The translations under genes were made by a program, and so were the position numbers. The notes beneath the pieces were generated by a model that saw only the letters and a program-made list of their open reading frames with translations, made no database searches and had not been told where the DNA came from. Shown piece by piece: positions 6,857 through 21,511 of a stretch of 35,487 bases of DNA; position 1 is the stretch's first letter; each line of letters begins with the position of its first letter. The stretch comes from a virus (taxonomy: Duplodnaviria > Heunggongvirae > Uroviricota > Caudoviricetes), in the IMG/VR virus record IMGVR_UViG_2663762908_000009; one strand, written 5' to 3'.

Positions 6857-8761
6857 ATGTCATGGATTTATCGTATTTCTATGAGAATGAAGTTATTTAT
6901 CGCGTTATTCCCTCTGCTACTTGCGCTGATATGGTTTGCCGGTTCAGGCATGCTCAGCCGCATCGGTACCGAACGACAGATGGACACTATCGGTCAGTTA
7001 ACAACGCTTGCCCGCAGCACGGGAGACGTTGTTCATCAACTGCAACGTGAACGTGGAATGAGCGCCGGTTTTATCGGTGCGCGTGGGCAGCAGTTCCGCG
7101 ATGAAATCCTCGTGCAGCGGAAATTAACTGACGACGCACTGGTAAAGTTAAACAAGGCGTTAGCCCGGACGGATACGAATTTAATACAGGGCAATATTGC
7201 CGCCACACTGAAAATGTTTAAAGACAATATTCAGTCCCTCGACGCCACCCGTAATGCAATAAGCGCGCTGAATATAGAGGCGTCAAAGTCGACGCAGTTC
7301 TATACGCAGACCATCTCCGGGTTGCTGAGTTTCGTTGGTGGTATAGGTCAGTTAAGCGCCTCCGGCCCAATGGTGAATGAGCTGGCAGCCTTCTATAGCC
7401 TGCTGAATTTAAAGGAGCAGGCCGGGATCGAGCGCGCACTGCTCACCAATGTCTTCTCTGTTGATCGCTTTAGCGACGGTCAATTCCGTATGCTCAGTGA
7501 TGTGGTGGGTAAACAAGAAGCCTGGCTGACCGCCACCCGCCGCTTTAGTAGCGAAGCTCAGGCTGCAGAGCTGGATAAAGCCCTTGCGTCGGCCGAAGTC
7601 ACCCGCGCTCTTGAGCTGAGAACGATTGCCTTGAATAAAGCGCAGGAAGGTGGATTTGGCGTTAAACCGACGGACTGGTTTACTGCCCAGACCAAACGCA
7701 TTGAGATACTTCGCCAGGTAGAAACCCAGGCGGCGGATGCCCTGCTCGCACATTCGGCGGCACTGGCCCACAACGCACGTGTTGACTGGCAATCCTTTCT
7801 GGCGATCAGTCTGATTGCCCTGCTCATTGCTATTGTCTTTGCCATGATAGTGGTGCGCAGTATTCAACAACAACTAACCAACACACTGAAAACCATCAAT
7901 GAGATGGACGGCGATTTGACCCGCCGCCTCGATGTACCGGGTAGCGACGAGCTCTCTGCTCTTAATCGCGCCTACAATCAGGCAATCGAAAACATTCAGC
8001 ATATCGTGCAGGAAATTAAATCGGGTGCGCTGATACTCAGTAACGCCAGCAGTGATATTACCGACGGTAACCAGGATTTGGCTCAGCGTACCGATGAGCA
8101 GGCTGCATCCATCGTTGAAACCGCCGCCAGTATGGAACAGATATCGACGGCTATCTCCCAGACGGCCCATAACGCCAGCGAGGCGGAGCGACTGACCCAG
8201 TCGATGGCAAATGATGTCATGGATGCGACCCGCGTTTCCAACGAGGCCAGCCAGAGCATGGCGGCTATCCGTTCGTCCAGCGACAATATTTTCCAGATTG
8301 TGGCGTCAATCGATGAGATCTCGTTTCAAACCAACTTACTGGCGCTAAACGCCGCAGTTGAAGCCGCCCGCGCGGGGGAACTGGGCAAAGGTTTCGCCGT
8401 TGTGGCGGCAGAGGTGCGTCATCTCTCCCAACGCTGTGCCAGAGAGGCCAGCCTGATTCGGGAGTTGGTTAATCAGAATATGAATAACATTGGCGAAGGG
8501 GTGCAACGGGTTTCGGCGTCCGAGGCGGCACTGAAAGCGGCAGCGGATACAACCGGGCGGATGAAGCAATATGTCAGTGATATCGCCCGCGCAGCCAATG
8601 AACAATCGCTTGGCGTAACACAAGTGCATCAGGCACTGAATCAACTGGAGCAGGTCACTCAGCAAAACGCGGCGCTGGTTTCCCAGATGGCAACCGCCAG
8701 TCAAATGCTTGACGCACAGTCGAAATCGATGTCCACGCTTGTTGACCGCTTTGTATCCTGA
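6857..8761 (+). CDS. methyl-accepting chemotaxis protein with periplasmic NIT-type (nitrate/nitrite-sensing) domain
   Basis: N-terminal TM helix, HQLQRERGMSAGFIG motif, second TM, HAMP, MCP signalling domain (EISFQTNLLALNAAVEAARAGELGKGFAVVAAEVRHL); AGGA 10 nt upstream; an ATG at 6884 is an alternative start. Confidence 0.8.
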   Translation: MSWIYRISMRMKLFIALFPLLLALIWFAGSGMLSRIGTERQMDTIGQLTTLARSTGDVVHQLQRERGMSAGFIGARGQQFRDEILVQRKLTDDALVKLNKALARTDTNLIQGNIAATLKMFKDNIQSLDATRNAISALNIEASKSTQFYTQTISGLLSFVGGIGQLSASGPMVNELAAFYSLLNLKEQAGIERALLTNVFSVDRFSDGQFRMLSDVVGKQEAWLTATRRFSSEAQAAELDKALASAEVTRALELRTIALNKAQEGGFGVKPTDWFTAQTKRIEILRQVETQAADALLAHSAALAHNARVDWQSFLAISLIALLIAIVFAMIVVRSIQQQLTNTLKTINEMDGDLTRRLDVPGSDELSALNRAYNQAIENIQHIVQEIKSGALILSNASSDITDGNQDLAQRTDEQAASIVETAASMEQISTAISQTAHNASEAERLTQSMANDVMDATRVSNEASQSMAAIRSSSDNIFQIVASIDEISFQTNLLALNAAVEAARAGELGKGFAVVAAEVRHLSQRCAREASLIRELVNQNMNNIGEGVQRVSASEAALKAAADTTGRMKQYVSDIARAANEQSLGVTQVHQALNQLEQVTQQNAALVSQMATASQMLDAQSKSMSTLVDRFVS

Positions 8762-13616: not shown

Positions 13617-13680
13617 GGTGATGCTGCCAACTTACTGATTTAGTGTATGATGGTGTTTTTGAGGTGCTCCAGTGGCTTCT
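13617..13680 (+). mobile_element. IS1 left end (IRL) at contig edge
   Basis: GGTGATGCTGCCAACTTACTGATTTAGTGTATGATGGTGTTTTTGAGGTGCTCCAGTGGCTTCT. Confidence 0.85.
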
Positions 13681-13692
13681 NNNNNNNNNNAG

Positions 13693-14127
<435 letters not shown>

Positions 14128-14190
14128 NNNNNNNNNNCAGGGTATAAGCCATTATCAAGCCCCCCGTAGATAGGCTTTGTAATGACATCT

Positions 14191-14715
14191 TCAATTAATC
14201 AGCAGTTCAGGCTGTGTCACCTGCAAGATGTATTCATGCTCGACAGCCAGGACACGCTTCTCTTTCTTCCGTTCGTTCATTAACCGACTGCCGATCGTAC
14301 CTTTCAGCTTTGAGCGTGTTTCTTTGATGGCGTAGCGGTGCTGCATTTCTTCGCCAATTGCCATGCGGCGGCTCAGTTGTTCTGCCATCCAGTTGAATGC
14401 TGCGATATAGCTCTCCTTGATTGCCGCAGCAGCTTTCCCGGTGAACCCCATCACAACCATGATCCAGCCATCTTTCGTCAGGCTGTACATCGGGCGAACC
14501 TTGCCCTGCTCATCGATATAATCAGCCGACGCAAAATTGCGTTGGCTAAACTCACGCGAGCAATCAGCCTTAACCTGCTCGATTTTCCTGAGAACATCAC
14601 TGTGTCGCTTGCCGAAGTACTTGGCAATTTTTCTGGATGTGGTAACGACCTCTCCGTTTTTGGCTTGCACCATTTCTCGGAAGTCGAAGGCTGGAATAAC
14701 TGAATGATTATTCAT
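14191..14715 (-). CDS. Rha-family phage regulatory protein / antirepressor-like
   Basis: MNNHSVIPAFDFREMVQAKNGEVVTTSRKIAKYFGKRHSDVLRKIEQ resembles the pRha N-terminal domain; start chosen at internal ATG 14715. Confidence 0.55.
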   Translation of the reverse strand: MNNHSVIPAFDFREMVQAKNGEVVTTSRKIAKYFGKRHSDVLRKIEQVKADCSREFSQRNFASADYIDEQGKVRPMYSLTKDGWIMVVMGFTGKAAAAIKESYIAAFNWMAEQLSRRMAIGEEMQHRYAIKETRSKLKGTIGSRLMNERKKEKRVLAVEHEYILQVTQPELLIN

Positions 14716-15139
14716 AGCGTCTTTACCTTTTAGAAAGTGAGCCTGTCTCACAGAAAAGCCGCCCGAGAGAGGTCGCCACCTATAACGGCATTTCTCAGGC
14801 TCGCTTACTGAAAGGCTCTCGTTAATATGCGCGTGAGATGCGCTGTGAAATTCAGATATAAAAAGCCCCGCGAATGCGAGGCTAAATCCTGGTATTTGTA
14901 ATGAACTGGCTCTTATCTCAACGCAGCCCCTTACTGCGCGCCAGATGCTCAATATCAAGCATCAGCAATGAGATGTTTAATCTGGATTTACTCCAGAAGT
15001 GATCACCACCCTGTCTACAGAGCCAGATGTGAAGGATGATGAGTAAAATTATCGCNNNNNNNNNNTGGGAAAACAAATAAAAGAAATCCCCGTCGCATCG
15101 GCGACAGGGGCAGGGAAGTAACAGGGATGGGTTAAATAC

Positions 15140-16003
15140 TCAGAAGAAGAAATCCCAGACGGCACGGGCCACTGACACCACGGTGGTGCGCACGGCCTGA
15201 ATGACGGCCCGCACCGGGGCGGGTATCAGGGGAAAGGCACTGATGCTATCGAGTACGGCCCCGACGGTTTCACCAAAATCGCTACGAGCCTGTTCCCGGA
15301 CTACCGTCGTGCGAAAGGAAGGATGGAGTTGCGACACCACCGGGCTGGTGGCCTCACGTGGCAGGCACTTAATCATCCGCTCGGCCATCACCTTAAGCCC
15401 CCATTGTAGACGGACCGACACGGCACACACCGGATGTACGGGCTGGAACAGCTCATGCAGCAGACAGATTTTACGGCTGATATTCTGCTTCTGCGCCGTG
15501 GACAACGGTCCCCCACCGCTGGTGGGTTCGGCCTTATCCGACTGGCTGATAACAAACAGCACCTTATGCCGGTATACCTCTCCAATCACCTGATGATAAA
15601 AATGTTCATCCACCGCCAGCGCCCGGTCATCGGCCTTAATCAGCCACAGAACCAGGTCGAGCCGGGGGAGTTGTTCGCGGTACATCGCAGCATACTCGGT
15701 ATCGCGAGCACCACTTTCGCCCACGCCGGGCAGGTCCACCAGCGTCATATAGCGGTCGCCGACTTGCAGGCGAAAGCGCAGTGGCTCACGGGTACATGCA
15801 GCCACATCGCTGACCGGTGATATATCTCCGGCAAACAGGGCATTGCACAGACTGCTCTTCCCAACACCGGTTTTACCCATAATGCCGATCACTGGCTCGT
15901 AGCGGGTTAACTGATTTATCTGCTGCAATATACGTTCAGACACCCACTGTGGCAGACCAGCGAGCGATTGCTGAAACGGCTTCAATCCTTCAGAATTGTT
16001 CAT
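15140..16003 (-). CDS. YfjP/YeeP/YkfA-family GTPase of CP4-type cryptic prophage islands
   Basis: P-loop GIMGKTGVGKSSLCNALF, DLPGVGE switch; AGGAG RBS 6 nt before ATG at 16003. Confidence 0.75.
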   Translation of the reverse strand: MNNSEGLKPFQQSLAGLPQWVSERILQQINQLTRYEPVIGIMGKTGVGKSSLCNALFAGDISPVSDVAACTREPLRFRLQVGDRYMTLVDLPGVGESGARDTEYAAMYREQLPRLDLVLWLIKADDRALAVDEHFYHQVIGEVYRHKVLFVISQSDKAEPTSGGGPLSTAQKQNISRKICLLHELFQPVHPVCAVSVRLQWGLKVMAERMIKCLPREATSPVVSQLHPSFRTTVVREQARSDFGETVGAVLDSISAFPLIPAPVRAVIQAVRTTVVSVARAVWDFFF

Positions 16004-16109
16004 TACTACTCCTCTGAAAAATAATACAAAAACGGCAGAATCGTGAGATTCCACCGTTAATCTGGTATGTTCAAAGGGATGATATATATCTGAAAATTAT
16101 TAACTTGAT

Positions 16110-17036
16110 CTACTTTTTGTCTTTTTTACGTGATGAAACAGCCTGCTGCCAAGCATGCTTCATTTTCTGAATAAAGAAATATTTTTCTTCAACTCCAGTG
16201 TCCCAACTATCCATGCATGCAATGATCATCTGTATTCTCATTGCAGTGTTATATGGTTTTAAATAAAAGGGGATCATATTTTTATTTCTCAGATACTCCC
16301 AGCAATAGATAGCTTGCTTTTCATCTTTTTTATCTAGCCAGTCATAATCAGTAAGAAATGTATTATATTGCTCTAGCCATTTATCATGCAACTTACGAAA
16401 ATAGGAAATTTTCTGACTTAAACTTACAGGAGCTAAATCAATAAACCTCATCAAAGTACAAATGCGTTCTTGTTCGGATGTTGTATTCGGGCTGTAGTTG
16501 TCGGGATCTGCGCCAGATGTTAAATAAAATCTACGCGAGTATTTTTCAGGTATATCTCTATTTTTTTCTTTATTGCTAGGGGAGATTCCCACCTGCATTT
16601 CGGCTTGTACTTCATCAAGTGAGAAATTTTTAATTTCATCAATGTTTATAAATTCAAAAAAGGATGCAGGAGTTGAGTTCGGGTTGTAAATATTATCTTG
16701 TGCAAAGATATTCACGCTCGAGGAGGTTTCAGGACTGATTCTGTTGTTATATATATACATTAAGGCAAACCACGATCCTCTATCAGAACCTTTGAAACAA
16801 TCGAACTTATCTTTGTCAATGATTTTGTAATGGAACTGTTTTTTCAAGTAAGTACGCGCACTTTGTATTGCTTCATTATTGAATAGGAATTTAGTGTTCA
16901 ATATATGATTAATGAGTTTTTGAAATTCCTCAGGCGTGTCGAAATTACTCGCCTGCTTAATGTAATCTTCGTTGTAATACAGACTCAGAACGTAAAGGGA
17001 AAAGAACTCCTCTCTCACTTCGTCATACCTAAGCAT
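16110..17036 (-). CDS. hypothetical protein, 308 aa, AT-rich, no recognisable domain (possibly a YfjH-like island protein)
   Basis: Intact ORF with GGAGG-like RBS; AT-rich codon usage contrasts with the neighbouring GTPase; co-oriented 106 bp upstream of the GTPase. Confidence 0.5.
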   Translation of the reverse strand: MLRYDEVREEFFSLYVLSLYYNEDYIKQASNFDTPEEFQKLINHILNTKFLFNNEAIQSARTYLKKQFHYKIIDKDKFDCFKGSDRGSWFALMYIYNNRISPETSSSVNIFAQDNIYNPNSTPASFFEFINIDEIKNFSLDEVQAEMQVGISPSNKEKNRDIPEKYSRRFYLTSGADPDNYSPNTTSEQERICTLMRFIDLAPVSLSQKISYFRKLHDKWLEQYNTFLTDYDWLDKKDEKQAIYCWEYLRNKNMIPFYLKPYNTAMRIQMIIACMDSWDTGVEEKYFFIQKMKHAWQQAVSSRKKDKK

Positions 17037-17485
17037 GTACCCTCCAGTGTGATATCACATCTGTCCGATGCTTTCAAAAGTATAAATGAACCATGATGAT
17101 TTGGCATCTGCAAGGTGACTGTTGACTGGTTTTTTGCTGATTTTTTAATGATAAAGTAGTGATTACTAACTGATTAGTAAGTGATTAATGGCTGGTTGCC
17201 TCCTGTGATTTTTCTGCCTCTGGTAAATTGGGGGAGAGTACTGATCAACTCACCACTCTGAATAATTTTCATGATTGCACTCTACAAAGTTTCGACATCC
17301 GTCAAATTGTAACGGTCAGAGAACAGCGTTACACGAGGTTTTCCGTATCTATGCATTCTTAGTTGGGTAGCTCAACTGCTCCTTCCAGATCTTTTTTTAC
17401 GTCACACCCCATTCATGTGGAGGAGAAGGCGTGAACAATTAGTTATCGCCTGCTCCGGTGCTCTTCTCGCAATGGGACACTCAGC

Positions 17486-17692
17486 ATGAAAACTAAACCT
17501 GCACTACTGGAAGATGAGTTCATCGATATGAAGTTTATCACACGCCTTACTGGCCTGAGTGATAAATGGTTCTATAAGTTGATACAGGAAGGGGTATTTC
17601 CGAAACCCATTAAGATGGGTAGAGCTTCTCGCTGGTTAAAAAGCGACCTGGAGGAGTGGTTGCAGGCTAAAATTAATGATTCCAGAAATTAA
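17486..17692 (+). CDS. alpA: AlpA-family prophage regulatory protein
   Basis: FITRLTGLSDKWFYKLIQEGVFPKPIKMGRASRWLKSDLEEWL; 68 aa. Confidence 0.75.
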   Translation: MKTKPALLEDEFIDMKFITRLTGLSDKWFYKLIQEGVFPKPIKMGRASRWLKSDLEEWLQAKINDSRN

Positions 17693-18096
17693 ATATTTTG
17701 GACTGTGTTTATCAAATTCCATGCCCTTTTTGCTGCTTAATTTTAAATGACACTCTGATCATGCACCGTGATTGAAATAAGTTATAGCCACCCCTTAATC
17801 ATTTTTTTCAGACGACATTAACTTCGGAGTAAATAATTTAACACAATGAAATATCAAACCGCATCTGGCCTGAATGTTGAGTATTAATACGTGACGGATT
17901 GTTAATATATATCAGTACATAAACCCCAATATTCCAGTAATACACACCTACGCAATACACACCAAGCAATTTAGTCAGCATCACCCAACTAACATCCAAC
18001 ACAAACTCAATAAGCCAGATTTGATACCACCTAATTACCTCAACCATCGCGGGTAAGGTTCCGTCCTGCCCGATATTCAGATCACAGGAATCTATT

Positions 18097-18708
18097 ATGC
18101 TTAATGATATTTATCTTGACCAACGTCATGCCCCATTCAATACAACGTATTTGCAACGGATGCTGGGTGTAATTGATAACGCTATAGCACAACACCCAAG
18201 GACAATGGCTGTCCGTGTCGATCTACGTCTGCCTGATGACAACTGTAATAGGAATAGTGGTCTGATATCCCGTTTCATTGAATCGCTTAATGCAAAAATC
18301 GATGCTCGGTACCGAAATAAAATAAAGAATGGCATCAGGAGCTACCCATGCCAGATACGTTACGCCTGGGTCCGGGAAGTGGGAGAAATAAACGAGAAGT
18401 CCCATTACCACATGGTACTCTTTGTAAACAAAGACACCTTCAACGGTCTGGGCCGCTATGGCAGAGATGGCACTGGATTAGCCAACCTGATAAGCGAGGC
18501 CTGGATGAGCGCCTTACAGTTGAGCTCATACCCTGAATACCGAACACTGGTGCATATCCCCGATAATCCACTGTATTACCTAGATGTCAACGCCTCGGAC
18601 TATCAGGCAATTTACGATAAACTCACTTTCCGTCTGAGCTATTTTGCAAAAGAGCGAACCAAAAGCTACTGCCGCGCAGAACGTTCATTCGGGTGTAGTC
18701 AGAACTGA
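18097..18708 (+). CDS. YfjJ/YagK-family protein of CP4-type islands
   Basis: MLNDIYLDQRHAPFNTTYLQRM...; about 400 bp after alpA, as in the alpA-yfjI-yfjJ arrangement. Confidence 0.5.
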   Translation: MLNDIYLDQRHAPFNTTYLQRMLGVIDNAIAQHPRTMAVRVDLRLPDDNCNRNSGLISRFIESLNAKIDARYRNKIKNGIRSYPCQIRYAWVREVGEINEKSHYHMVLFVNKDTFNGLGRYGRDGTGLANLISEAWMSALQLSSYPEYRTLVHIPDNPLYYLDVNASDYQAIYDKLTFRLSYFAKERTKSYCRAERSFGCSQN

Positions 18709-18714
18709 GAGGAA

Positions 18715-19233
18715 AGTAGCAGGTATCCGACAGTATTTCAGCATCTGCTTCGTTATTACGCCGGTTACAGCGCCCGTCCTGCCAGTCAGCAGAACGGTTA
18801 ATCCGCAGTGACAGCTGCGCACGCGACACTCCCATGGTGCGGCTGACCAAGGCTATTCCCCGTCCTTTGGCAACAAGAGCTCGTGCACTATCCATTTTCG
18901 CGACTGACCGTACTCCACGGCTTCTTTCAGGATCTCAACTTCCATCGTCTTCTTACCCAGAAGGCGCTGAAGCTCCCAGACCTGTTTCAGAGCAGCAGTA
19001 AGCTCAGAAGCGGGAACGAATTCCTCTACGGCCGCAACGGCGGTAAGGCTGCCTTCCTGGTACTGCTTCTTCCACTTAAACAGCAGGCCTAGCTGAATAC
19101 TGTGCAGGCGGGCACATGGGAGACATTCATGCCGGGCTCCATCGTCTACAGGATAATGGCGATCTTCTCCTAAAGAATTTTACGCTTACGGACTTCTTGC
19201 CCTAACAGGATCCCAGTCATCTCAAAATTGGCG
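18715..19233 (-). pseudogene. IS2-like (IS3 family) remnant: orfA with two in-frame TAG codons and a frameshift, orfB cut after ~50 codons
   Basis: Minus strand reads ...EKIAII[15 protein letters not shown]... then [18 protein letters not shown]...[17 protein letters not shown]...; orfB start [28 protein letters not shown]. Confidence 0.65.
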
Positions 19234-19318
19234 GTAAGCGTCAAGTCACTGCCGCCTGTGATTCCAGTCCCGGGATCGCTAGCTTAGAGCTCCGTCTAAT
19301 TTAGAAGGAGCTCTGTTT

Positions 19319-19759
19319 ATGGAAAATGCTGCCAACTGGCGAACTGAATCGCGTACCGTCTATTCCAGTGACTTCAAACTTCGGATGGTCGAACTGGCTT
19401 CACGACCAGATGCCAACGTCGCACAACTGGCGCGGGAACATGGCGTTGATAATAATCTCATTTTTAAGTGGCTACGCCTCTGGCAGAGAGAGGGGCGAAT
19501 CTCTCGTCGAATGCCTGCAACTATCGTGGGGCCGGTGGTACCTCAATCTCTTCCGGCTTCTCCGACTCTGTTGTCCGTCGACGTTATCAACGACCCGTTG
19601 CCCGCAGCAGAGAATGACACTCTGTGTACGTTCTCCTCCGCTCACGCCAGCGCCACTTCCTGTCATGTTGAGTTCCGCCACGGCAAAATGACGCTGGAGA
19701 ACCCGTCGTCAGAGTTGCTGACTGTGCTGATCCGCGAATTGACCGGGAGGACACCATGA
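19319..19759 (+). CDS. IS66-family accessory protein TnpA (orf1)
   Basis: AAGGAG RBS; HTH-like N-terminus; overlaps orf2 by 4 nt. Confidence 0.7.
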   Translation: MENAANWRTESRTVYSSDFKLRMVELASRPDANVAQLAREHGVDNNLIFKWLRLWQREGRISRRMPATIVGPVVPQSLPASPTLLSVDVINDPLPAAENDTLCTFSSAHASATSCHVEFRHGKMTLENPSSELLTVLIRELTGRTP

Positions 19760-20106
19760 TATCCCTCCCGTCAGGCACCCGCATCTGGCTGGTCGCCGGG
19801 GCCACGGATATGCGTAAATCCTTCAACGGGCTGGGCGAACAGATACACCACGTTCTGGATGAGGATCCCTTCTCCGGCCATCTGTTTATCTTCCGGGGAC
19901 GCCGTGGCGATACCGTGAAAATACTTTGGGCTGATGCTGATGGTCTGTGCCTGTTTATCAAACGCCTGGAAGAGGGACAGTTCGTCTGGCCTGCTGTACG
20001 CGACGGCAAAATCGCGATCACCCGCTCACAACTTGCCATGCTCCTTGATAAGCTGGACTGGCGCCAGCCAAAAATATCCCGCCTTAACTCACTGACAATG
20101 TTGTAA
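19756..20106 (+). CDS. IS66-family TnpB (orf2)
   Basis: MISLPSGTRIWLVAGATDMRKSFNGLGEQIHHVLDEDPFSGHLFIFRGRRGDTVKILWADADGLCLFIKRLEEG. Confidence 0.8.
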   Translation: MISLPSGTRIWLVAGATDMRKSFNGLGEQIHHVLDEDPFSGHLFIFRGRRGDTVKILWADADGLCLFIKRLEEGQFVWPAVRDGKIAITRSQLAMLLDKLDWRQPKISRLNSLTML

Positions 20107-20136
20107 AAAAATCATAACCGCATTATAAAAGCGGTT

Positions 20137-21438
20137 ATGAATCACGACTATCTCGCCCGTATCGCTGCGCTGGAAGACGCGCTTCGCCAGAAAGACAGTC
20201 AGCTCAGTCTCGTTGCAGAGACTGAGTCGTTCCTGCGTTCTGCACTGGCCCGCGCAGAAGAGAAAATAGAGAACGAAGAGCGCGAGATAGAGCATCTGCG
20301 GGCACAGATAGAAAAACTGCGTCGAATGTTGTTCGGTACCCGCTCCGAAAAACTTCGCCGACAGGTTGAAGAAGCCGAAGCCCTGCTGAAACAGCAGGAG
20401 CAGCAAAGCGATCGCTACAACGGACGGGAAGACGATCCGCAGGTACCTCGCCAGTTGCGTCAGTCCCGCCATCGTCGCCCGTTACCAGCACATCTTCCCC
20501 GCGAGATACATCGGCTGGATCCTGCGGAAACCAGCTGTCCGGAATGCGGCAGCGGTATGGCGTACCTCAGCGAAGTCAGCGTGGAGCAGCTGGAACTGGT
20601 CTCCAGCGCCCTGAAAGTGATCCGCACGGTCAGGGTGAAAAAGGCCTGCACCCGATGTGACTGTATCGTTGAAGCACCTGCGCCATCACGTCCCATCGAT
20701 CGGGGTATCGCCGGGCCGGGTCTGCTGGCCCGCGTGTTAACGGCCAAATACTGCGAACACCTGCCGCTGTATCGCCAGTGCGAAATCTTTGCCCGTCAGG
20801 GCGTGGATCTGAGCCGGGCTCTGCTCTCCAACTGGGTGGATGCATGTTGCCGGTTAATGGCCCCGCTGGATGAGGCCCTTTACCACTACGTGATGGACTG
20901 CCACAAACTGCATACGGATGACACTCCGGTTCTGGTGCTTGCACCGGGCAGAAAGAAGACGAAAACCGGGCGTATCTGGACGTATGTACGTGACGACAGA
21001 AGCGCAGGTTCATCAGATCCGCCAGCGGCATGGTTCGCCTTCTCGCCAGACCGGCAGGGAAAACATCCTCAGCAACACCTTCGCCACTATCATGGTGTGC
21101 TGCAGGCGGATGCCTTCGCAGGCTACGATCGGTTGTTCAGTCCGGAACGTGAAGGAGGGCCGCTGACAGAAGCCGCATGTTGGGCCCATGCCCGCCGAAA
21201 AATCCATGATGTCTATATAAGCACTCACACAGCGACAGCGGAAGAAGCCCTGAAACGTATCGGTGAGCTGTACGCGATAGAAGAAGAAATACGCGGCCTC
21301 ACGACAGAAGAGCGTCTGGCAGCCAGACAATCGCAAAGCAAACCACTGCTGGCATCGCTGCATGAATGGCTGGTAGAAAAAAATGAGACGCTGTCGAAAA
21401 AGTCCCGTCTGGGCGAAGCGTTCGCTTATGTCCTGTGA
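20137..21438 (+). CDS. IS66-family transposase TnpC, C-terminally truncated; stop codon supplied by the first 3 nt of IS3
   Basis: Leucine-zipper N-terminus, CPECGSGM...CTRCDC zinc finger, ...HARRKIHDVY...; ends at KKSRLGEAFAYVL-stop where IS3 begins. Confidence 0.8.
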   Translation: MNHDYLARIAALEDALRQKDSQLSLVAETESFLRSALARAEEKIENEEREIEHLRAQIEKLRRMLFGTRSEKLRRQVEEAEALLKQQEQQSDRYNGREDDPQVPRQLRQSRHRRPLPAHLPREIHRLDPAETSCPECGSGMAYLSEVSVEQLELVSSALKVIRTVRVKKACTRCDCIVEAPAPSRPIDRGIAGPGLLARVLTAKYCEHLPLYRQCEIFARQGVDLSRALLSNWVDACCRLMAPLDEALYHYVMDCHKLHTDDTPVLVLAPGRKKTKTGRIWTYVRDDRSAGSSDPPAAWFAFSPDRQGKHPQQHLRHYHGVLQADAFAGYDRLFSPEREGGPLTEAACWAHARRKIHDVYISTHTATAEEALKRIGELYAIEEEIRGLTTEERLAARQSQSKPLLASLHEWLVEKNETLSKKSRLGEAFAYVL

Positions 21439-21500
21439 TCCTACCCACGTAATATGGACACAGGCCTAAGCGAGGTTCTTGTTTTCAAATTGTTCCGGAC
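21436..21500 (-). mobile_element. IS3 right end, element in reverse orientation, at contig edge
   Basis: TGATCCTACCCACGTAATATGGACACAGGCCTAAGCGAGGTTCTTGTTTTCAAATTGTTCCGGAC. Confidence 0.85.
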
Positions 21501-21511
21501 NNNNNNNNNNG

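What the first reader, a model, noticed from the sequence alone, without database searches (positions are those of the whole stretch)
15140..17692. AT-rich 308-aa ORF of no recognisable family, paired with a YfjP/YeeP-type GTPase and divergent from alpA
ORF 16110..17036 (minus) is intact and has a ribosome-binding site, but I cannot place it in any family. Its AT-rich composition contrasts sharply with the GC-normal GTPase 106 bp downstream on the same strand, suggesting recent acquisition as cargo. It faces away from alpA across a 450-bp AT-rich control region. In CP4-57/CP4-44-type islands, the slot next to alpA and the GTPase commonly holds toxin-antitoxin or anti-phage cargo (for example rnlAB upstream of yfjP in K-12), so this could be an uncharacterised cargo gene. 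It may instead be a YfjH-like island protein, which I cannot exclude from memory.
Basis: partly seen in the sequence, partly recalled or inferred. Interest (0 to 1): 0.55.

Follow-up and report, generated by a model that had tools for sequence, protein, structure and literature searches.

The report
Island backbone gene, not defence cargo
The 308-aa gene is a real, conserved but uncharacterised core gene of a common type of bacterial genomic island, probably a regulator next to the island's excision/replication genes, and it borders the slot where anti-phage genes get inserted rather than being cargo itself.

Summary
ORF 16110..17036(-) is intact, has a GGAGG ribosome-binding site, is 35% GC against 57% for the YfjP-type GTPase 106 bp downstream, and faces alpA across 449 bp. 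The interpretation mostly fails.

- **Not YfjH, not known defence.** It matches no Pfam, NCBIfam, PADLOC, PHROG or PDB entry.
- **Member of an undescribed family.** At least 219 clusters (50% identity) of about 300-aa helical proteins share two tandem copies of a ~70-aa module. In 124 of 137 representatives a C-terminal ribbon-helix-helix (RHH) DNA-binding tail follows. This clade lacks that tail.
- **Backbone, not cargo.** In all 29 islands examined the gene diverges from the alpA / YagK-YfjJ (inovirus gpII-like) genes. Its distance to the GTPase ranges from 0.1 kb to over 8 kb.
- **The gap is the cargo slot.** It holds Septu, Gabija, PDC-S15 and Mokosh- or HerA-like genes elsewhere, and is empty here.
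- **Low GC is a family trait** (0.33-0.42 in 14 islands), and dN/dS is 0.13-0.36.
- **New cis-element.** Seven 11-bp-phased (A/T)ATCA repeats abut its promoter, in 16/16 RHH-less islands and 0/7 RHH-bearing ones.

Best reading, by inference: a regulator or architectural protein of the island's excision/replication module. Moderate interest.

The parts
16110..17036 (-). CDS of the 308-aa protein ('X308'). Residues 1-104 form helical domain 1, residues 105-180 a disordered variable linker, and residues 181-308 helical domain 2, ending in a Lys-rich tail (SSRKKDKK).
   Evidence: ORF. The AF2 model built with 137 sequences has pLDDT 82 and pTM 0.75, with two helical domains and a low-confidence stretch at 115-175. 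dN/dS is 0.13-0.36. The gene is intact in 29 complete E. coli genomes.
16740..16949 (-). First copy of the ~70-aa three-helix module (residues 30-99), ending in the motif F-x-[CW]-[FIL]...R-x-[SC]-W-[FW]-x-x-x-Y-I.
   Evidence: hhalign of the N half against the C half of the family alignment gives probability 97.9% and E 5.2e-13, aligning residues 30-99 with 184-253.
16278..16487 (-). Second copy of the module (residues 184-253; YDWLDKKDEKQAIYCWEYL).
   Evidence: This is the most conserved part of the family: D200 and W233 are nearly invariant.
17041..17045 (-). Ribosome-binding site GGAGG, 4 nt upstream of the ATG.
   Evidence: Read directly from the sequence.
17079..17107 (-). Sigma-70-like promoter candidate for X308 (ATGCCA, 17 nt spacer, TATACT).
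   Evidence: Consensus scan. This is a prediction only; the region holds no more promoter-like sites than shuffled sequence does.
17111..17187 (-). Seven direct repeats of 11 bp with core (A/T)ATCA(C/G/T), ending at the -35 of the candidate promoter.
   Evidence: TRF, period 11; 0 of 100 shuffles match. The array sits at the same place in 16/16 RHH-less islands and in 0/7 RHH-bearing islands.
17037..17485 (.). Divergent control region of 449 bp between X308 and alpA. The alpA-proximal 200 bp are 85% identical to Kluyvera.
17486..17692 (+). AlpA-family excisionase/regulator gene (68 aa).
   Evidence: Pfam PF05930, E 2.6e-8; PHROG annotation 'excisionase and transcriptional regulator'.
18097..18708 (+). 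YagK/YfjJ-type (inovirus Gp2 family) gene, 203 aa. A gene of this kind accompanies the X family in all but a few of the islands checked (see evidence).
   Evidence: Pfam PF11726, E 4.9e-53. It is 36% identical to K-12 YfjJ. A YagK_YfjJ_C/Gp2-type gene was identified on the opposite strand near the X-family gene in all but 3 of the 29 islands. L020 and L024 have a possible but unconfirmed equivalent, and L023 has no upstream DNA to check.
15140..16003 (-). YfjP-type GTPase gene (287 aa). It is a backbone gene on the far side of the cargo slot, which is empty in this island.
   Evidence: MMR_HSR1, E 6e-16; 84% identical to YfjP; RefSeq start taken.
16021..16099 (-). Conserved leader of the GTPase gene: motif AATAATTTTCAGATATATATCATCC, a GC-rich hairpin at 16031-16058, and a U run.
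   Evidence: The same element lies directly upstream of the GTPase in all 16 islands examined, including K-12 yfjP and islands where cargo intervenes. At least three different stem sequences occur.
19319..21438 (+). IS66-family element (tnpA, tnpB and transposase ORFs) running to the contig end. It is not part of the system.
   Evidence: ORFs. A related IS66 element occupies a different position in strain AW1.7.

Best explanation
X308 is a core ('backbone') gene of CP4-57/CP4-44-type integrative islands. These have the layout int ... yagK/yfjJ, alpA <> X, [cargo slot], GTPase, DUF932 ... CbtA/CbeA; in complete E. coli genomes this island sits at tRNA-Sec.

**What the family is (shown).** X308 belongs to an undescribed family of about 300-aa all-helical proteins. 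Each has two tandem copies of a ~70-aa three-helix module. In about 90% of family representatives a basic linker and a CopG/RepB-regulator-like ribbon-helix-helix (RHH) DNA-binding domain follow. The gene is always transcribed divergently from the island's alpA and/or gpII-like (YagK/YfjJ) genes.

**Most likely role (inferred).** It is a regulator or architectural DNA-binding factor of the shared control region, governing the island's excision/replication module. The analogy is to CopG-type repressors of rolling-circle Rep genes, or to the divergently encoded master repressors of phage satellites.

**This clade.** The E. coli clade has lost the RHH but stays under purifying selection. In step with that loss it acquired an array of 4-7 helically phased 11-bp (A/T)ATCA repeats abutting its own promoter. 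I infer that it is regulated through, or itself binds, this array by way of its two helical modules and its Lys-rich tail.

**The GTPase.** Adjacency to the GTPase is incidental. The defence-cargo hotspot that separates the two genes in other islands is empty here.
For: **Family**
- An exhaustive profile search finds 219 representatives at E<=1e-3, mostly 280-390 aa.
- 124 of 137 aligned members carry a ~58-aa tail beyond the point where X308 ends. That tail hits RepB-RCR_reg (28 members), RHH_1 (11), the NCBIfam replication regulatory protein RepA (11 of 63 members scanned) and PDB CopG.
- The internal duplication scores probability 97.9%, E 5e-13.
- The AF2 model is confident, with pLDDT 82.

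**Context**
- In 29 islands the gene diverges from alpA and/or a YagK_YfjJ_C/Gp2-type gene: the window, L002, L005, L006, L011, L014, L016-L028 and L029-L034. They span Escherichia, Kluyvera, Klebsiella, Enterobacter, Citrobacter, Buttiauxella, Budvicia, Salmonella, Enterobacillus, Vibrio and metagenomes.
- The distance from X to the GTPase is 84-115 bp in 6 islands, 0.45-7.1 kb in 11, and more than 8 kb or no GTPase in others.
- The intervening genes include PtuA/PtuB, GajA/GajB, PDC-S15, MkoC-like and HerA-like proteins.
- The spacer in the window is the GTPase's own leader.

**Selection and composition**
- dN/dS is 0.13-0.36.
- AT-richness is constant across lineages.

**Cis-element**
- The phased ATCA array occurs in 16/16 RHH-less islands against 0/7 RHH-bearing ones. 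It is the only match to the pattern in each 9-38 kb locus.
Against: - No experiment or curated family supports any molecular function.
- X308 itself lacks the RHH on which the DNA-binding inference for the family rests.
- The array could be bound by AlpA, by a host factor (the core resembles the IHF half-site WATCAR), or could simply be curved DNA.
- The family is absent from some islands of the same type, for example K-12 CP4-57. It is therefore not indispensable.
- Only 7 contexts of RHH-bearing members were inspected.
Confidence: 0.45

Rival explanations
1. X308 is an accessory of island replication or segregation rather than a transcription factor. On this view it is a MatP-like or ParR-like DNA organiser that binds the phased repeats, as an origin or centromere-like site, for the gpII-like initiator YagK/YfjJ after excision.
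For: - Near-universal linkage to the gpII-like gene: identified in all but 3 of the 29 islands.
- The family's C half plus RHH aligns collinearly with MatP residues 13-130 (PDB profile search E 0.088-0.14).
- 11-bp iteron-like arrays are typical of partition sites such as R1 parC (from memory).
Against: - The MatP signal is below significance.
- The Pfam MatP N-terminal family is never hit; only the MatP_C RHH is, weakly, in 2 of 137 members.
- hhalign against the single MatP sequence aligns only the RHH.
- X308 lacks the RHH.
- The array directly abuts a promoter, which is just as typical of an operator.
Confidence: 0.2
2. The RHH-less X308 is a sensor or modulator that no longer binds DNA. 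It would act by protein-protein contact, for example as an anti-repressor or dominant-negative partner of RHH-bearing paralogues from co-resident islands, or as a partner of AlpA or YagK.
For: - The DNA-binding tail is lost while the two helical modules stay under purifying selection.
- Budvicia carries both an RHH-less and an RHH-bearing paralogue in two islands of one genome.
- E. coli genomes often hold 2-3 related islands (places per record).
Against: - It does not explain why a new phased repeat array appears exactly with RHH loss.
- No interaction data exist.
Confidence: 0.15
3. One reading: X308 is recently acquired cargo, a toxin-antitoxin or anti-phage gene, working together with the adjacent GTPase.
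For: - It lies in the neighbourhood of a proven defence slot.
- It is AT-rich.
- One source names the Budvicia homologue 'Rho GTPase-activating protein'.
Against: - Its position is conserved while the true cargo varies.
- It can be separated from the GTPase by up to more than 8 kb, and it occurs in islands without the GTPase.
- A terminator-like hairpin and the GTPase's own leader lie between the two genes.
- There are no PADLOC or RhoGAP hits.
- AT-richness is an old, family-wide trait.
- There are no phage or plasmid homologues.
Confidence: 0.07
4. X308 is a decaying relic of an RHH regulator, truncated at the linker and without function.
For: - It ends where relatives continue into an RHH.
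- It is rare in E. coli, present in 29 of 5426 complete genomes.
Against: - The RHH-less form is intact in 15 of 16 species-level loci across at least 9 genera, with dN/dS 0.13-0.36.
- All 29 E. coli copies are full length at 93-99.9% identity.
- The RBS, the promoter-proximal array and the start codon are conserved.
Confidence: 0.04

Closest known systems
CopG / RepB-RCR_reg / CopB(RepA2)-type ribbon-helix-helix repressors of plasmid Rep genes (Pfam PF01402, PF10723; NCBIfam NF010256)
   Same: - Most family members end in an RHH that hits these models and PDB CopG.
- Like them, the gene sits next to a rolling-circle-type (gpII-like) initiator gene.
   Different: - Those repressors are 45-90 aa proteins that are essentially just the RHH. 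Here the RHH is a small appendage on a ~250-aa duplicated helical body found in no library.
- X308 and its clade have no RHH at all.
MatP (macrodomain Ter protein; PDB 3vea, 4d8j, 7nyw)
   Same: - The order of elements is the same: a helix with W-x-W-x-Y-L, a helical bundle, a basic helix (MK...R..KR), then an RHH.
- The alignment is collinear over MatP residues 13-130.
   Different: - The similarity is statistically weak, with E about 0.1. The MatP N-terminal Pfam family is not hit.
- MatP is a 150-aa chromosomal housekeeping protein with a C-terminal coiled coil.
- The X family has an extra N-terminal module copy and a long disordered linker, and is island-borne.
- X308 lacks the RHH.
Divergently encoded master regulators of integrative satellites and islands (e.g. 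SaPI Stl); analogy from general knowledge
   Same: - A protein of about 300 aa, consisting in most relatives of a small DNA-binding domain plus a larger body.
- It is encoded divergently from the excision/replication operon across a complex control region.
- It is highly diverse in sequence between elements.
   Different: - There is no sequence or fold relationship.
- Stl uses an N-terminal HTH, whereas this family uses a C-terminal RHH (or none).
- No evidence exists of repression or of phage-triggered induction.
   Same: Similar size (318 aa), and it also lies next to alpA in an island of the same type.
   Different: No detectable similarity: BLASTP E 0.72, and profile comparison probability 0.3%.

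Membership tests
Undescribed 'X family' (Gp2-associated tandem-module protein) | Significant full-length profile similarity to the family | tested here: met
   Homologues from 35% identity (Budvicia, E 2e-50) down to E 1e-3 for 219 clusters.
Undescribed 'X family' (Gp2-associated tandem-module protein) | Two tandem copies of the ~70-aa three-helix module with the F-x-W-[LI]...C-x-W-x-W-x-Y-L motif | tested here: met
   hhalign of the N half against the C half gives probability 97.9% and E 5.2e-13. Both domains are confidently modelled.
Undescribed 'X family' (Gp2-associated tandem-module protein) | Encoded divergently from alpA and/or a YagK/YfjJ (Gp2-like) gene | tested here: met
   In the window, alpA lies 449 bp away on the opposite strand and yagK follows it. 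The same holds in all 28 other islands.
Undescribed 'X family' (Gp2-associated tandem-module protein) | C-terminal basic linker plus ribbon-helix-helix | tested here: not met
   X308 stops 12 residues after the conserved W296. 124 of 137 relatives continue for a median of 58 aa. No RHH remnant appears in the downstream frames.
Ribbon-helix-helix (CopG/Arc/MetJ) DNA-binding proteins | Presence of the beta-alpha-alpha RHH domain | tested here: not met
   No Pfam or NCBIfam hit for X308. Only relatives hit RHH models.
MatP | Match to the MatP N-terminal domain (PF06303) and the MatP_C RHH (PF17414) | tested here: not met
   PF06303 is never hit by any of the 137 members or by the family consensus. 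PF17414 is hit by 2 members at E 0.02.
MatP | Collinear sequence and structure similarity over bundle plus RHH | tested here: inconclusive
YfjH (CP4-57) | Sequence similarity to K-12 YfjH | tested here: not met
   BLASTP E 0.72; hhalign probability 0.3%.
Known anti-phage defence or toxin-antitoxin proteins | Match to a PADLOC model, or to a TA family in Pfam or NCBIfam | tested here: not met
   0 families in PADLOC, Pfam and NCBIfam.
Known anti-phage defence or toxin-antitoxin proteins | Behaves as variable cargo, replaced by other systems at the same slot | tested here: not met
   The gene is retained while the cargo downstream of it varies.
Death-fold (CARD/PYD/DED) six-helix bundles | Confident structural match of the six-helix N domain | tested here: inconclusive
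Rho GTPase-activating protein (a source's name for the Budvicia homologue) | RhoGAP domain | tested here: not met
   No RhoGAP family appears among the Pfam hits of X308 or of the 63 members scanned, which include P0008.

The most novel reading that the evidence does not exclude
The X family is the missing master regulator, or sensor, of the very widespread alpA/Gp2-type defence-carrying islands (CP4-57, CP4-44 and their Vibrio relatives). In the RHH-less enterobacterial clade the duplicated helical module has become a new kind of DNA-binding domain that reads 11-bp-phased (A/T)ATCA iterons. This would be a switch of DNA-recognition mode caught in evolution.
Probability: 0.15. Interest if true: 0.65.

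Novelty: new variant of a known kind. Interest (0 to 1): 0.4.

Why it matters
CP4-57/CP4-44-type islands are among the commonest carriers of anti-phage systems and type IV toxin-antitoxin pairs in Enterobacterales. How their excision, replication and transfer are controlled is unknown. A related class was only recently shown to move by phage transduction (PMC12595487). E. coli surveys list many integrase-only defence islands whose mobilisation is unclear (PMC10121019).

- **Candidate regulator.** A conserved, uncharacterised protein always sits opposite the alpA/gpII-like genes. This makes the question experimentally approachable.
- **Practical landmark.** The gene's stop codon and the GTPase leader bracket a defence-gene hotspot that could be mined.
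- **RHH loss with array gain.** The loss of the RHH tail together with the gain of a phased repeat array is a tidy natural experiment in regulatory rewiring.

None of this makes the gene itself a new defence system.

Tried and rejected
- **YfjH-like protein.** Rejected.
- **Cargo, defence or TA gene.** Rejected on context and PADLOC results.
- **GAP or partner of the GTPase.** Rejected: no RhoGAP domain, variable distance, and islands that lack the GTPase.
- **First AF2 run.** With 6 sequences it gave an unusable model, pLDDT 47. It was repeated with 137 sequences.
- **Fold searches.** Foldseek against PDB and BFVD found nothing. afdb50 was not available.
- **MatP profile.** The search for homologous proteins on MatP returned only 97-100% identical E. 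coli sequences, so no profile-profile test was possible.
- **The search for related loci with the 137-sequence alignment.** It failed because no stretch was conserved enough. The 6-sequence alignment was used instead.
- **Family consensus against Pfam.** Only RHH families appeared, plus a sub-threshold DotM_C hit (19.9 bits against a cut-off of 27), which I disregard.
- **Rfam on the contig.** No match.
- **RNAalifold on the GTPase leaders.** No structure was returned because MAFFT misaligned the divergent stems. The single-sequence folds were used instead.
- **tblastn against phages and plasmids.** No match.
- **IMG/VR.** Three hits, all at the extreme ends of 50-55 kb predicted proviruses and therefore uninformative.
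- **Literature searches.** Nothing on this protein.
Full report
**1. The observation**

The ORF at 16110..17036 on the minus strand is present, intact and 308 aa long. GGAGG sits 4 nt upstream of its ATG. Its GC content is 0.347. The GTPase downstream on the same strand is 0.574.

The GTPase carries an MMR_HSR1 domain and is 84% identical to K-12 YfjP.

An AlpA-family gene at 17486..17692(+) faces away across 449 bp. That region is only mildly AT-rich, at GC 0.42.

One caveat concerns the window itself. It is a scaffold of short contigs joined by 28 runs of exactly ten N. The real contig is only 15066..21500, so genes left of 15056 are not true neighbours. In 29 of 5426 complete E. coli genomes the same 2.5-kb segment lies in an island. 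The one island whose full context was examined (strain AW1.7) is integrated at tRNA-Sec. There the order is int, MTase/helicase/GIY-YIG, three hypothetical genes, Gp2-like, alpA <> X308, GTPase, DUF932, HTH, AIDA-repeat autotransporter, antirestriction, RadC-type JAB, and CbeA/CbtA.

**2. No curated family, but not an orphan**

X308 hits nothing in Pfam, NCBIfam, PADLOC, PHROGs or PDB sequences. It is unrelated to YfjH.

- A word-indexed search of 5.8 billion proteins found only eight clusters, all from Enterobacterales.
- An exhaustive profile search found 219 representatives at E<=1e-3, mostly 280-390 aa.
- With 137 of these as the alignment, AlphaFold2 gave a confident model (pLDDT 82, pTM 0.75). 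It has a six-helix N domain (residues 1-100), a disordered variable linker (about 105-180), and a five-helix C domain (185-307).
- Profile-profile comparison of the two halves shows they are duplicates. Residues 30-99 align with 184-253 at probability 97.9% and E 5e-13. Each copy ends in an F-x-W-[LI]...C-x-W-x-W-x-Y-L helix.

**3. The ancestral tail and its loss**

Of the 137 aligned members, 124 continue past the point where X308 stops, for a median of 58 residues. This tail is a basic linker plus a ribbon-helix-helix.

- It hits RepB-RCR_reg in 28 members and RHH_1 in 11.
- It hits the NCBIfam 'replication regulatory protein RepA' in 11 of the 63 members scanned.
- It hits CopG in the PDB.

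X308 and its clade (E. coli, Kluyvera, Buttiauxella, Budvicia, Yersinia, Salmonella and the Klebsiella/Enterobacter/Citrobacter group) end in a Lys-rich stub instead. The RHH-less form is not decaying. Fifteen of 16 species-level loci are intact, the exception being Enterobacillus, which has a frameshift. dN/dS is 0.13-0.36. All 29 E. coli copies are full length.

**4. Closest known architecture**

Independently, the family profile aligned collinearly with MatP residues 13-130. The aligned elements are the W-x-W-x-Y-L helix, the bundle, a basic helix and the RHH, at E about 0.1. The MatP N-terminal Pfam family is never hit. I could not build a MatP profile. MatP-like organisation is therefore a lead, not a membership.

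**5. Genomic context decides between cargo and backbone**

I examined 29 islands: the window plus L002, L005, L006, L011, L014, L016-L028 and L029-L034.

- In every one the X-family gene is transcribed divergently from alpA and/or a YagK/YfjJ-type (inovirus gpII-like) gene. This includes seven distant RHH-bearing members and two Vibrio-type islands that have no GTPase.
- The distance to the GTPase varies. It is 84-115 bp in six islands, 0.45-7.1 kb in eleven, and more than 8 kb in two.
- The intervening genes differ from island to island. They include Septu PtuA/PtuB, Gabija GajA/GajB, PDC-S15, an MkoC-like protein and a HerA-like ATPase. In K-12 the same slot holds rnlAB.

The 106-bp spacer is not a linker of a two-gene operon. 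It consists of a conserved motif (AATAATTTCAGATAGATATTATC), a GC-rich hairpin and a U run. This element travels with the GTPase gene. It lies directly upstream of the GTPase even when cargo intervenes, and upstream of K-12 yfjP. At least three unrelated stem sequences occur.

**6. Composition**

X homologues have GC 0.33-0.42 beside GTPases of 0.51-0.59 in all 14 islands measured. The contrast is an old, stable property of the backbone, not evidence of recent acquisition. It is compatible with xenogeneic silencing, which is my inference.

**7. A conserved cis-element**

Directly upstream of the candidate X308 promoter (17079-17107) lie seven direct 11-bp repeats with core (A/T)ATCA(C/G/T), at 17111-17187.

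- The same phased array, with 4-7 copies starting 123-149 nt before the ATG, is present in 16 of 16 islands with an RHH-less X.
- It is absent from 7 of 7 islands with an RHH-bearing X. Other periods give runs of 2 or fewer in 22 of the 23 loci, with a single run of 3 at period 12 in L030.
- It is the only match to the pattern in each locus.

Loss of the RHH and gain of the array therefore go together. Who binds the array is unknown.

**8. Mechanism**

*Shown:*
- family membership and the internal duplication;
- loss of the RHH in this clade;
- purifying selection;
- invariant pairing with the alpA/gpII-like module;
- the position of the cargo slot;
- the phased repeat array.

*Inferred:*
- The family acts on DNA in the divergent control region, as a regulator or architectural factor of the island's excision/replication module.
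- The RHH-less clade works through, or is controlled by, the ATCA array.

The rivals are an origin or partition accessory, a non-DNA-binding modulator, true cargo, and a decaying relic. They are ranked in the report sections.

**9. Novelty and verdict**

Nothing in the searchable literature mentions this protein. Islands with IntY, AlpA, RadC and Gp2-like genes are recognised as a widespread class carrying defence systems (PMC12595487).

The finding is a genuine, uncharacterised backbone gene of a known island type, with an undescribed duplicated domain and an interesting regulatory signature. It is not a new defence or TA system and not a partner of the GTPase.

- Interest: moderate (0.4).
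- Novelty: a new variant of a known kind, namely regulators of mobile elements from the RHH lineage.

Noticed in passing
window 1-35487 (N runs, e.g. 15056-15065 and 21501-21510): The window is a draft scaffold of 29 short contigs joined by 28 runs of exactly 10 N. Adjacency across these gaps is meaningless. For example, the Rha-family gene at 14191-14958 and the tail-fibre fragment at 13672-14169 are not neighbours of the GTPase.
   Followed up: yes
window 16021-16099 (-); also L010 14620-14710 (K-12 yfjP) and 14 other loci: A conserved element lies directly upstream of every YfjP-type GTPase gene. It consists of the motif AATAATTTCAGATAGATATTATC, a GC-rich hairpin whose stem sequence differs between clades while the structure is kept, and a U run. 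It could be a terminator that insulates the GTPase operon, or a leader attenuator. There is no Rfam match.
   Followed up: partly
window 17111-17187 (-); L006 9853-9929; L002 9856-9900; L016-L028 about 7863-7915: An array of 4-7 direct 11-bp repeats with core (A/T)ATCA(C/G/T) abuts the promoter of the RHH-less X genes. It is present in 16/16 RHH-less islands and absent from 7/7 RHH-bearing ones. The binding protein is unknown.
   Followed up: partly
L017 9276-11481; L023 1799-5357; L016 9379-10749; L021 11254-14907; L018 10505-14028: The slot between the X gene and the GTPase holds Septu (PtuAB), Gabija (GajAB), PDC-S15, a Mokosh-like MkoC protein and a HerA-like ATPase in different Enterobacterales. 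Several neighbouring ORFs in the slot have no PADLOC hit, for example L016 10819-11943 (374 aa), L021 9215-10843 (542 aa) and L018 10505-11872 (455 aa). These could be new defence candidates.
   Followed up: partly
window 17286-17485 (the alpA-proximal 200 bp of the intergenic region): This non-coding stretch is 85% identical between E. coli and Kluyvera. That is higher than the flanking X (81%) and GTPase (77%) coding sequences, and far higher than the middle of the spacer (51%). It probably holds the alpA promoter and leader or another conserved site.
   Followed up: no
window 19319-21438; L001 20884-23219: IS66-family elements lie in the same island but at different positions: downstream of yagK in the window, and between alpA and the Gp2-like gene in strain AW1.7. 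One E. coli genome (H16) has an IS3 inserted within the 2.5-kb segment.
   Followed up: no
L002 10001-11089 and L029 6001-7125 (Budvicia aquatica, one genome): One genome carries two islands of this type, one with an RHH-less X (362 aa) and one with an RHH-bearing X (374 aa). NCBI's name for the former, 'Rho GTPase-activating protein', has no domain support.
   Followed up: partly
H50-H52 (three complete E. coli genomes): Only the last 137-141 nt of the X308 gene, the end next to the GTPase leader, survive in these genomes. This shows deletion or replacement events with a breakpoint inside the gene.
   Followed up: no
L035-L037 (IMG/VR UViGs): The X308 gene lies within 0.7-3 kb of the ends of three predicted proviruses of 50-55 kb. 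The island may sit next to a prophage, or the provirus boundaries may be over-called.
   Followed up: no
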